DNA from: an uncultured delta proteobacterium | GTDB taxonomy: Bacteria; Myxococcota; Myxococcia; SLRQ01 | NCBI GenBank assembly: GCA_963727485.1 | Contig: CAVSGM010000005.1 | Coordinates: forward strand, 32,001 to 96,000 | DNA: 64,000 nt | Reading direction: 5' to 3' | Part shown: one piece after another, positions 15,001 through 18,000 of the stretch | Numbering within the stretch: position 1 is the first letter of the stretch | How the letters are laid out: each line of letters begins with the position of its first letter | Made by a program: the position numbers

Positions 15001-18000
15001 CGGGATCAACGACGACCGCCTCGGGCCGCGCTTCCCGGACCTCTCCCACGCCTACGACCCGGACCTCGGCGACCTGGTGGAGCACCTGGCCGACGACGTG
15101 GGGGCGCCGGTGAAGCGCGGGGTCTACGCGTACATGGCGGGGCCGTCCTACGAGACGCCCGCGGAGATCCGCGCGCTCAAGGCCCTGGGCGCCGACGCGG
15201 TGGGGATGTCCACGGTCCCCGAGGTGGTCGCCGCCCGGCACATGGGCGTGCCGGTGGTGGGCATCTCGGTGATCACCAACCTCGCGGCGGGCCTCTCCGA
15301 GAAGGGCCTCTCCCACGAGGAGGTGAAGGAGGTCGCCGACCGGGTGACCGGCCGGTTCCTGGAGCTGCTCCGCCGCTTCATCCCCGCGGCGGTGGCGCAC
15401 TAGCGGCGAGCCGCTAGGCGTCCTTCGCGGCGTCCGCCTTCTCGGCCTCGGCCTGCTTCGCCTCGTTCAGCTTGGCGTACTTGCGCCGGAACCGCTCGAT
15501 GCGGCCCGCGGTGTCCATCATCCGCTGCTTGCCCGTGAAGAACGGGTGGCACTCGTTGCAGATGTCGACGGTGAAGTCGCCCTTGGTGCTGCGGGTCACG
15601 ATGACGTTGCCGCAGGCACAGGTGATCTTCGAGACGGGGTAGTCGGGGTGGATTTCGGCCTTCATGTCTTCCTCGTCCGCTTGCCCGGGCCGGTCTGGCC
15701 CGAGGTCCGGGATTGGCAAAGGAGGCTGTGTATGCCGCCGGGGAGGCCGCGTCAAGCCCAGGTCCCCGCCGGCCCGGGGCCCGGGCGCCGGCGTCGCCGC
15801 CGGGCTTGCCTGTGGCCACGGCCCTGCTAATTCACCCTCCATGGCGAAGGGCGAGAAGGATCCGGCGAAGGCGGCGGCGGCCCTCCGGGAGGAGATCCGC
15901 CGCCACGATCACCTCTACTACGTCGAGGACGCCCCGGAGATCTCCGACGCCGAGTACGACCGGCGCTTCCGGCAGCTCCAGGCCCTCGAGGAGGCCCACC
16001 CGGACCTGCGCACCCCGGACAGCCCCACCCAGCGGGTGGGCGCGCCCCCGAGCGAGAAGTTCGAGAAGGTCCGCCACCAGCTGGCGATGCTCTCCCTGGG
16101 CAACGCCTTCGACGACGACGAGGTCCGGGCCTTCGACGCCCGGGTGAAGCGCTTCCTCGAGGTCGACGCCGACGAGCCACTGGCCTACCAGTGCGAGCCG
16201 AAGCTCGACGGCCTGGCGGTGGAGCTGGTCTACCGGGACGGAGTGCTGGTGCGCGCCGCCACCCGGGGCGACGGGCAGACCGGGGAGAACGTCACCCCCA
16301 ACGTGCGCACCATCCACTCCATCCCCCTGCGCCTCGACCTCGACGCGGCCCGGGAGACCGTGGCCCTCCCCGCGGAGGTGCGCATCCGCGGCGAGGTGAT
16401 CATGCACAAGCAGCACTTCGCCGAGCTCAACGCCCGCCGCGAGGAGGCCGGCGAGGCGGCCTTCGCCAACCCCCGGAACGCCGCCGCCGGGAGCCTGCGC
16501 CAGCTCAATCCCAAGGTCACCGAGCGGCGCCCCCTCGACGCCTTCTTCTACGAGGTGGGCTTCCCCGATCGGGACCTCGCCTGGACCCGGCAGTCGGAGA
16601 AGCTCGAGGTGTTCCGGCGCCTGGGCCTCAAGGTCGCGCCCTTCATCGAGGTGGTCGAGGGCGTGGAGGCGACGCTGGCCTGGTACCAGCGCCTCCTCGG
16701 GGAGCGCCACGAGGCCGACTTCGAGATGGACGGGATGGTCATCAAGGTCGACGACCTCGGCCTCCAGCGGCGCCTGGGCCAGGTGTCCCGGTCGCCCCGG
16801 TGGGCCATCGCCTACAAGTTCCCGCCCGAGGAGGCGGTGACCGTGGTCAACGGCATCGAGGTGCAGGTGGGGCGCACCGGGGTGCTCACGCCGGTGGCGC
16901 GCCTGGAGCCGGTGACCGTGGGCGGGGTGACCGTCTCCAACGCCACCCTCCACAACGCCGACGAGATCGCACGCAAGGACGTGCGCGTCGGTGACCACGT
17001 GAAGGTCCGCCGGGCCGGTGACGTGATCCCCGAGGTCGTCGAGGTCCTCATGGGCAAGCGGCCCCCGGGCACCGAGCCCTGGCAGATGCCCGAGATGTGC
17101 CCCGCCTGCGGCGCCCACGCGGTCCGCGAGGAGGGCGAGGCGGCCACCCGATGCACCGGCGCCAGCTGCCCGGCCCAGCTCAAGGGACGGCTCGGGCACT
17201 TCGCCTCCCGGGGCGCCCTCGACATCGACGGCCTCGGGGAGAAGACGGTGGTGCAGCTGGTGGACGCGGGCCTGGTCCACGACTTCGCCGACCTCTACAC
17301 CCGGCTCGACCAGGCGACCCTCGAGGGCCTGGAGCGCATGGGCGAGAAGAGCGCCGCCAACCTGGTGGCGGCCCTGGAGCGGAGCCGGGACACCACCCTG
17401 CGCCGCTTCCTCTTCGGGCTTGGGATCCGCCACGTCGGCGAGCACGTCGCCGGGATCCTCGGCCGGGCCTACGAGGGGCCCACGGCCCTCTTCGATGCCA
17501 CGGTGGAGGAGCTCGAGGCCCTCCGGGACGTGGGGCCGGAGGTGGCCCGGGCCCTCGTCGAGTTCTTCGCCGAGCCCCAGAACCGCCAGCTGGTCGAGCG
17601 CCTCCTCGCCGCCGGGGTGAGGCCCCGGGCCGAGCGGGCGCCCAAGGGGGGCGTCTTCGAGGGCAAGACCGTGGTCTTCACCGGGACCCTCGAGCACCTC
17701 ACCCGGGACGAGGCCAAGGCCGAGGTCGAGCGCCGGGGGGGCCGGGCCTCGGGGAGCGTCTCCAAGAAGACCGATCTCGTGGTCGCGGGCCCCGGGGCCG
17801 GGAGCAAGGCGGAGAAGGCCCGGGCCCTCGGCGTCGAGACCATCGACGAGGCGGCGTTTCGCAGGCTCCTCGAGCCGGACGGGTAGCCGGGGCCGCGGTG
17901 CCTCGACTACCCTGCGTGCTCCCCGTGCCGGAGGGTTCCCCCTTGTCCACCGCCGCAGACGCCGTCGTCGCCCTGGTCGCCGTCCTCCATGTCGGCTTCC

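What a model noticed while it worked through the whole genome (the two positions that open the first line are those of the whole stretch)
15414..17886. A 73% GC Gram-negative lineage that has lost both rho genes and shows no U-tract terminators
No rho gene is found here or in the four other genomes of the order, while the other Myxococcia sampled carry two; rpmE and ligA, which flank rho in relatives, stand 175 bp apart here, and hairpin-plus-U terminators are hardly enriched. This lineage likely ends most transcripts by neither Rho nor canonical intrinsic terminators, that is by a third route (U-less hairpins, NusA/NusG/Mfd or an unknown factor). Known Rho-less clades are mostly AT-rich and rely on intrinsic terminators, so a whole high-GC order without either would open a new termination system.
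Evidence so far: TIGR00767 and PF07497: 0 of 5 order genomes from 5 genera, 85-98% complete. 98 of 101 phylum genomes have rho, and all 19 other Myxococcia sampled show two matches. tblastn with a relative's Rho finds only F/V/T3SS ATPases. Synteny: rho lies between rpmE and ligA in G012 and G009 and directly next to ligA in G016; rpmE and ligA are adjacent in G000, G001 and G003. Terminator-like sites at 30 of 484 convergent gene ends against 24 shuffled; 107 strict hairpin+U sites genome-wide, 19 per Mb against 11.5 shuffled and 22 per Mb in Rho-bearing relatives' loci. PMC11347177 (passages): Rho-less are Mycoplasmatota, Cyanobacteriota, some Bacillota, two Actinomycetota and Haliangium ochraceum.
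(Added by a program. Inside this text positions count along the whole contig: contig position 32,001 is position 1 of the stretch shown here. "Call 12" and the like, gene names such as g00115 and contig names such as C1 are that model's own, and its searches are not shown. The text may have been shortened before it was handed on; [...] marks where a part breaks off. The agent that wrote the report below was given it as the finding of a first reader that could run no searches.)

Follow-up and report, generated by a model that had tools for sequence, protein, structure and literature searches.

The report
Myxobacterial order without Rho or RNaseJ
All five genomes of this uncultured myxobacterial order lack the transcription-stopping motor Rho and the RNA-chasing nuclease RNase J, and they show textbook stop signals after some stable RNAs but after only a few percent of predicted mRNA ends, so most mRNAs likely trail off at ragged positions, as reported for cyanobacteria.

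Summary
The loss is real. rho is found in 0 of 5 order genomes against 358 of 363 other class members. Both ancestral gene sites are closed up. The second 'rho' is an ATPase-only paralog. New here: RNase J is also missing (0 of 5 against 101 of 107), and NusG's Rho-contact loop is changed in 4 of 4 against 0 of 26. 'No U-tract terminators' is overstated: the rRNA operon, several tRNAs and an order-wide small RNA in this window end in hairpin-plus-U sites. At predicted mRNA ends such sites are rare (13 of 600 here; 2 of 71 in a 60%-GC member; E. coli 18 of 55) and no commoner than in Rho-bearing relatives, so nothing visibly compensates. Best reading: intrinsic stops at high-flux RNAs, diffuse Mfd- or collision-driven ends elsewhere; untested, as no RNA data exist. 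Precedents: cyanobacteria (PMC12642595) and seven Polyangia isolates tabulated as Rho-less with U length 0 (PMC13613805 supplement). No replacement factor was found. The scan had not noted this before.

The parts
14570..15403 (+). ORF convergent with rpmE, ending 10 bp from the rpmE stop (purine-nucleoside-phosphorylase-like; name recalled, not searched)
   Evidence: Same neighbour in G001 and G002. The best hairpin after the rpmE stop is only -15.2 kcal/mol with no U run: an in-window example of an mRNA end with no terminator.
15414..15665 (-). rpmE, ribosomal protein L31; follows rho in relatives
   Evidence: Pfam PF01197 E 3e-30; rho then rpmE in G039, G363, G132
15666..15840 (.). 175-bp divergent spacer where canonical rho stands in relatives; no Rho remnant
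   Evidence: same junction in G001 and G002
   Evidence: orthologues at 61-65% identity in G001-G004
18620..18771 (-). Conserved three-stem-loop small RNA candidate ending in a canonical intrinsic terminator (hairpin 18631-18665 plus U tail); 5' end estimated
   Evidence: Present at the same place in 5 of 5 order genomes; tail of 6-8 U in G001-G004, interrupted in G000; fold z = -3.9; two terminator-stem pairs change on both sides
18783..18797 (-). sigma54-type -24/-12 box upstream of the small RNA (consensus recalled)
   Evidence: TGGCA and TGC invariant at the same spacing in 5 of 5 genomes

Best explanation
All five genomes of this order lack rho, its ATPase-only paralog and RNase J and show no more terminators than their Rho-bearing relatives, so termination is likely two-tiered: hairpin-plus-U terminators would stop polymerase after high-flux RNAs, while most mRNAs likely run past their last gene and end diffusely. 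Shown: the three gene absences; the closed-up rho sites; the changed NusG loop; strong hairpins with U tails after rRNA, tRNAs and a small RNA; and weak, strand-oriented U tails at a minority of mRNA ends. Inferred: (1) polymerase pauses at GC-rich hairpins or meets a converging polymerase; (2) it is released there or further on by Mfd (5 of 5 genomes), by head-on and trailing collisions, or by NusA/NusG-aided release at short U tails; (3) PNPase and RNase R trim the ragged 3' ends back to the nearest strong hairpin, which would explain the U-less hairpins without their being terminators; (4) the read-through is tolerated.
For: Absences. Closed sites. The NusG KOW loop reads LSMFGRD in 4 of 4 order genomes and VSIFGR(A/S) in 26 of 26 others; I164-F165-G166 is the Rho-contact loop (PMC7593976, passage). 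This fits an old, real loss. Canonical sites at predicted mRNA ends: G000 13 of 600 (2.2% against 1.4% shuffled), G002 3 of 71, G004 2 of 71, G001 1 of 20; Rho-bearing G039 4 of 230, five other Rho-bearing genomes pooled 15 of 181; E. coli control 18 of 55. At all convergent ends G000 has 11 of 600 against E. coli 12 of 38. Strong hairpins (<=-25) exceed shuffles by only about 10 points in G000 (119 of 600, 19.8% against 9.0%) and 2 points in G004 (2 of 71), so most ends have no signal. U tails follow the direction of transcription (sense against antisense, >=3 U: 51 against 24 of 219 co-directional hairpins, p = 6e-5; 42 against 20 of 190 convergent, p = 3e-4) and rise with a codon-based expression proxy (>=4 U: 1.4% in the lowest fifth, 8.3% in the highest). 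Retained parts: Mfd 5 of 5, NusA 3 of 3 tested, NusG 4 of 5, PNPase and RNase R in G000. Precedent: in Synechococcus 22% of units end canonically, 46% diffusely, and loss of Mfd raises read-through (PMC12642595, abstract and passages); collisions at stem-loops terminate convergent genes (10.1101/2022.10.23.513370, abstract).
Against: No transcript data: none of 24 RNA runs held more than 12% of the words, so diffuse ends are inferred from missing signals only. mRNA ends rest on my own gene caller, and co-directional gaps of >=80 bp may be inside operons. Samples of G001, G002 and G004 are small (77, 400 and 319 kb). In cyanobacteria Mfd's effect was only moderate, and the authors still call for an unknown mechanism. 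Mfd, NusA and NusG occur across bacteria, so their presence discriminates little; Mfd was not compared with Rho-bearing relatives here. Convergent gaps are no wider than in relatives (58% under 30 bp against 33-72%), so gene layout shows no adjustment to read-through. The NusG loop also binds S10 (PMC13753749, passages), so its change need not be due to Rho loss.
Confidence: 0.5

Rival explanations
1. Relaxed intrinsic termination: a termination-prone polymerase aided by NusG/NusA reads strong GC hairpins with only 2-4 U as efficient terminators at most transcription units, as mycobacterial polymerase does at imperfect U tracts, which made Rho dispensable.
For: G000 tails are eroded where relatives keep U runs: the small-RNA terminator has 6-8 U in G001-G004 but an interrupted tail in G000; tRNA ends with >=5 U are 7 of 40 in G000 and 6 of 25 in G004 against 13 of 22 in G039 (Fisher p = 0.0015 and 0.019). 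Tails are strand-oriented. Mycobacterial precedent: PMC3993855 (abstract).
Against: Hairpin <=-20 plus >=3 U is found at only 61 of 600 ends (10.2% against 3.1% shuffled) in G000 and 2 of 71 in G004. Hairpins are not shared at orthologous ends (both in 1 of 26 pairs, p = 1). The same paper finds no termination without a U tract. The tRNA comparison is uneven: the G000 set includes doubtful ARAGORN calls, and the other two are top-scoring subsets (30 of 43 and 30 of 48 loci).
Confidence: 0.22
2. An undescribed dedicated termination factor, or an order-specific change in RNA polymerase, replaced Rho and RNase J and recognises a signal that my scans cannot see.
For: Three RNA-tracking proteins were lost together with no visible gain of terminators, even at 60% GC. 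NusG changed at 11 columns that are otherwise conserved. A UpxY/RfaH-type antiterminator is kept in 3 of 5 genomes and NusB in 4 of 5, so something may still stop polymerase early.
Against: Every named candidate failed: RNase J 0 of 5; beta-CASP nuclease 3 of 5, about 450-470 aa with the nuclease domain at the N-terminus; HelD 0 of 5 over the cut-off; RapA 3 of 5 and class-wide; IGHMBP2/Sen1-like helicase 1 of 5 and class-wide; Rho_N domain 0 of 3 tested. No enriched 3' motif beyond GC-rich palindromic words. A screen of 587 proteins from G001, G002 and G004 left 93 shared soluble proteins, none an obvious candidate by eye; 11 proteins from those loci were scanned against NCBIfam. That screen covered under a tenth of each genome.
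Confidence: 0.2
3. Artefact: rho is present but missing from five incomplete assemblies.
For: The five genomes are 85-98% complete; 5 other class genomes also lack a match; G000 shows apparent frameshifts and a duplicated nusA-infB stretch.
Against: Both gene sites are assembled through without the genes in 3 and 4 genomes. Two unlinked genes would have to drop out of five assemblies from five genera. The NusG loop change is independent evidence.
Confidence: 0.03

Closest known systems
Cyanobacterial non-canonical termination (Cascino et al. 2025 preprint, PMC12642595; abstract and passages read)
   Same: A Rho-less clade in which canonical terminators explain a minority of transcription units; Mfd present; unknown mechanism suspected.
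   Different: Cyanobacteria keep RNase J, which that paper still leaves open as a candidate; this order lacks it. Here the loss is inside a class where 358 of 363 relatives keep rho, so it can be compared with close outgroups. Predicted canonical ends are about 2-5% here against 22% measured there (different methods).
Rho-less Polyangia isolates: Haliangium ochraceum (PMC11347177, passages and supplement rows); Haliangium, Enhygromyxa x3, Nannocystis, Plesiocystis, Sandaracinus (PMC13613805 supplement file 3 rows)
   Same: Gram-negative myxobacteria of 67-72% GC scored as having no Rho and median U length 0.
   Different: A different class, so by parsimony an independent loss. Only table rows: 'myxococcota' has 0 hits in that paper's main text. 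I could not check their rho, RNase J or NusG status; the table's score may demand all three Rho domains.
Mycobacterial imperfect-U intrinsic terminators aided by NusG (PMC3993855, abstract; 10.1101/2022.07.21.500918, abstract)
   Same: High GC, strong hairpins, short or interrupted U tails.
   Different: Mycobacteria keep Rho, which backs up their weak terminators; this order has no such backup.
Rho-less, intrinsic-terminator-rich clades (Mycoplasmatota, streptococci; PMC11347177, passages)
   Same: No functional rho.
   Different: There 76-92% of transcripts are reported to have intrinsic terminators; here a few percent of predicted mRNA ends.

Membership tests
Rho-less clades that rely on intrinsic terminators | No functional rho | tested here: met
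Rho-less clades that rely on intrinsic terminators | Most transcription units end in hairpin plus U tract | tested here: not met
   13 of 600, 3 of 71, 2 of 71, 1 of 20 against E. coli 18 of 55; prediction only
Cyanobacterial-type non-canonical termination | No rho, and canonical terminators at a minority of units | tested here: met
   (computational)
Cyanobacterial-type non-canonical termination | Diffuse or structure-less 3' ends in vivo | not testable with these tools
   No RNA run holds this organism
Cyanobacterial-type non-canonical termination | Mfd contributes to end formation | not testable with these tools
   mfd present in 5 of 5; function untested
Mycobacterial-type weak-U intrinsic termination | Strong hairpins with oriented, imperfect U tails | tested here: met
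   at a minority of ends only
Mycobacterial-type weak-U intrinsic termination | Rho present as backup | tested here: not met
Mycobacterial-type weak-U intrinsic termination | NusG stimulates release at suboptimal terminators | not testable with these tools
   nusG present in 4 of 5
Torpedo termination (RNase J1, archaeal FttA/aCPSF1) | A conserved RNase J or FttA-like beta-CASP nuclease | tested here: not met
   RNase J 0 of 5; beta-CASP 3 of 5, short form; no KH-domain scan was run
Pxr small RNA (side finding at 18620-18771) | Match to the Rfam Pxr model | tested here: not met
   No Rfam hit at gathering score in the window; at E<=1 only an unrelated chance hit
Pxr small RNA (side finding at 18620-18771) | Three stem-loops behind a predicted sigma54 promoter | tested here: met
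   Pxr anatomy from PMC5684412 passages

The most novel reading that the evidence does not exclude
This order replaced Rho, its ATPase paralog and RNase J with an undescribed termination factor or a re-tuned RNA polymerase that ends most mRNAs with neither a U tract nor an RNA-tracking motor: a third general route of bacterial termination, possibly shared with Rho-less Polyangia and cyanobacteria, and findable by comparing five genomes with about 360 Rho-bearing relatives.
Probability: 0.2. Interest if true: 0.9.

Novelty: new variant of a known kind. Interest (0 to 1): 0.58.

Why it matters
How bacteria without Rho end transcripts that lack intrinsic terminators is an open question, newly posed for cyanobacteria, where no close Rho-bearing relatives exist. 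This order is a clean loss inside a densely sampled Rho-bearing class, spans 60-73% GC, and also lacks RNase J, the main alternative candidate. It narrows the options to Mfd, collisions, Nus-aided weak terminators or something new, and makes a gain/loss search practical. The joint loss of rho and the ATPase-only paralog also hints that the paralog works with Rho (inference). Cultured Polyangia tabulated as Rho-less would be a bench stand-in.

Tried and rejected
Replacement factors, all rejected as order-wide substitutes: RNase J, beta-CASP nuclease (20), HelD (91, 94), RapA (66), IGHMBP2-like helicase (65), Rho_N proteins (31). Extra RNase H for R-loop removal: one divergent copy in each of 5; 12 of 20 relatives have a second copy (111). 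A 3' sequence motif: only GC-rich palindromic words (25). Hairpin-free oligo-U signal: T4 against A4 runs after co-directional stops are 46 against 28 of 804 in G000 and 12 against 15 of 50 in G004, no stronger than 12 against 2 of 138 in G039 (87). Decay of rut-like C>G skew: G039 convergent ends +0.084 against G000 -0.033, but the other Rho-bearing genomes were near zero at co-directional ends (49), and four-fold-site skew did not split the groups (87); not used as evidence. Runaway-transcription signature: only 4 of 39 hairpin-plus-U sites start within 12 nt of the stop (90). Conservation of hairpins at orthologous mRNA ends: none seen in 26 pairs (109). RNA reads: 24 runs, all at small share and kept as contigs; none laid (68). 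RpoB/RpoC were not compared across genomes, so an order-specific polymerase change remains open. A Rho search of viral contigs (118) gave 7 loci and bears on nothing here. A review on termination signals (PMC13675443, passages) had nothing relevant. Print searches; none listed a paper on Rho or RNase J loss in a Myxococcia order. Most subscription papers and bioRxiv supplements are outside the library, and the uncultured-genome rows of BATTER were not searchable by this lineage, so prior mention cannot be excluded.

Full report
1. The window. The coordinates hold rpmE (15414-15665, minus; Pfam L31) and ligA (15841-17886, plus), divergent, with 175 bp between them. In relatives this stretch carries rho: G039 has rpmE, rho, two other genes, ligA; G363 has rpmE, rho, ligA; G026 has rho beside ligA; G132 has rho then rpmE. 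G001 and G002 share the closed junction; G003 and G004 have other genes upstream of ligA.

2. The loss is real. TIGR00767 finds no match over the cut-off in the 5 order genomes. At E<=1e-40 it finds 358 of the other 363 class genomes; the five misses are 73-89% complete. Outside the class, 76 of 80 phylum genomes carry the Rho RNA-binding domain. Ten Rho proteins from five relatives, as tblastn queries and as an HMM over all six frames of G000, give only weak hits that I read as flagellar/T3SS and F/V ATPase genes. The second site (sppA, DnaJ-domain gene, paralog) is also closed in G000, G001, G002 and G004.

3. A correction. The second copy is 50-56% identical to the first and lacks the RNA-binding domain: PF07497 gives one match per genome in 252 of 253 genomes with a match, and Moreira et al. 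class it as 'Rho-like ATPase domain' (PMC11347177, supplement rows). So the order lost one canonical Rho and one motor-only paralog.

4. Two additions. RNase J is missing from 5 of 5 order genomes and present in 101 of 107 other class genomes sampled at >=90% completeness. The NusG KOW loop reads LSMFGRD in 4 of 4 order sequences (none found in G001) and VSIFGR(A/S) in 26 of 26 others. In E. coli the loop with I164, F165 and G166 contacts Rho (PMC7593976, passage); I164 also belongs to the S10 interface (PMC13753749, passages). I take the change as support for an old loss, not as proof of cause.

5. GC content. G000 is 73%; sampled stretches give 72.0% (G002, 400 kb), 69.9% (G001, 77 kb) and 59.6% (G004, 319 kb). 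The order is not all high-GC, which makes G004 a useful control.

6. Terminators. I called genes with my own dicodon model (4,499 genes in G000; relatives), folded the regions after stop codons and compared them with dinucleotide shuffles. The E. coli control finds canonical sites at 18 of 55 predicted unit ends. Stable RNAs in G000 do have them: the rRNA operon ends in a -28.8 kcal/mol hairpin plus U6, and tRNA-Lys, -Asp, -Pro and -Glu ends have U runs. Of 40 tRNA ends, 24 have a hairpin of <=-20, 16 have >=4 U and 7 have >=5 U; G004 has 6 of 25 with >=5 U and Rho-bearing G039 13 of 22 (uneven sets). In the window, a candidate small RNA at about 18620-18771 (minus) is conserved in all five genomes and ends in a hairpin with 6-8 U in four of them. 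The title's 'no U-tract terminators' is therefore wrong as worded.

7. mRNA ends. Canonical sites: G000 13 of 600 sampled from 1,079 ends (2.2% against 1.4% shuffled), G002 3 of 71, G004 2 of 71, G001 1 of 20; G039 4 of 230; five other Rho-bearing genomes 15 of 181. Over all convergent ends, G000 has 11 of 600 sampled against E. coli 12 of 38. Strong U-less hairpins are enriched (<=-25 kcal/mol: G000 119 of 600, 19.8% against 9.0%; G039 76 of 230, 33% against 13.8%; G004 2 of 71) and not before divergent starts. Their weak U tails point in the direction of transcription and are commoner after genes with highly-expressed codon usage. So the order has the class's ancestral U-poor pattern and no gain to offset Rho; roughly 85-90% of predicted ends show no excess signal.

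8. Candidate replacements. Mfd 5 of 5; NusA 3 of 3 tested; NusB 4 of 5; PNPase, RNase R, RNase PH, GreA-like genes and RNase HII in G000, with no Hfq hit. Not order-wide or not special: beta-CASP 3 of 5, RapA 3 of 5, IGHMBP2-like helicase 1 of 5, HelD 0 of 5, Rho_N 0 of 3, RNase H one copy each. No 3' motif. A partial screen of shared proteins showed nothing suggestive but covered under a tenth of each genome. RpoB and RpoC were not compared.

9. Mechanism. I commit to two tiers (0.5): intrinsic stops where flux is high; read-through and diffuse release elsewhere, by Mfd, polymerase collisions and Nus-aided weak sites, with 3' trimming back to hairpins. The gene absences and sequence statistics are shown; every kinetic step is inferred. 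Rivals: relaxed intrinsic termination (0.22), a new factor or altered polymerase (0.2), assembly artefact (0.03). No RNA data were available.

10. What is known. Cascino et al. (PMC12642595; abstract and passages) show that Rho-less Synechococcus ends 22% of units canonically and 46% diffusely, with a modest Mfd effect. Moreira et al. (PMC11347177; passages and supplement rows) list Haliangium ochraceum as Rho-less. The BATTER supplement (PMC13613805; abstract, section 16 and file 3 rows) scores 25 of 25 Myxococcia as Rho-bearing, 24 of them with U length 0, and 7 of 7 Polyangia isolates as Rho-less with U length 0; I could not verify those seven. Czyz et al. (PMC3993855, abstract) and Wang et al. 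(10.1101/2022.10.23.513370, abstract) supply the weak-U and collision precedents. PMC12360218 (passage) names only Cyanobacteriota, Mycoplasmatota and Streptococcaceae as Rho-less. Nine searches listed nothing on this order; bioRxiv supplements and most subscription papers were not visible.

11. Verdict. A real, clade-wide loss with corroborating marks, and a new variant of a kind now known from cyanobacteria and hinted at in Polyangia. It is worth following because close Rho-bearing outgroups and the RNase J loss make the open question tractable. Interest 0.58.

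Noticed in passing
window 18620-18797, minus strand; L097, L098, L099, L100: Candidate sigma54-driven small RNA of about 150 nt with three stem-loops, C-rich loops (CCGCCAUGC and GCCCCAUCC invariant) and a canonical terminator, at the same place in all five order genomes. 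No Rfam match; anatomy resembles Pxr. Not matched in the other 274 loci by an exact terminator pattern nor in earlier scan notes.
   Followed up: partly
G000 C1:382289-383614; L276, L278, L279: A carD-like gene (name recalled from the sequence) follows the site of the lost Rho paralog in G000, G001, G002 and G004; in G000 its K/A/P-rich tail appears frameshifted, possibly an assembly indel.
   Followed up: partly
window 20566-23203: RNase E/G gene appears split in an acidic low-complexity repeat (ORFs 20566-21555 and 21677-23203); G039 and G004 have single ORFs of about 845 aa. Possibly an assembly indel.
   Followed up: no
G000 C3:565558-571362 and C12:24294-30104: The rimP-nusA-infB stretch occurs twice with matching gene lengths and starts, on C3 and on the short contig C12; likely assembly redundancy.
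   Followed up: no
G000 C11:602020-602975: No L3 gene between S10 and L4 in the S10 operon (names recalled from sequence); not checked in relatives.
   Followed up: no
G000 C3:171054-171572; L040 (G004), L041 (G003): UpxY/RfaH-type antiterminator paralog kept in 3 of 5 Rho-less genomes, raising the question of what it antagonises.
   Followed up: partly
G388, G395, G441; G426: Of four phylum genomes outside the class with no Rho RNA-binding match, three also gave no RNase J match; G426 has RNase J. Single fragmented assemblies, not followed.
   Followed up: no
G000 C3:542283-544874: A UvrD/PcrA-type helicase reads in frame into ribosomal protein L13 (Pfam); a fusion or a missing stop from a sequence error.
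   Followed up: no
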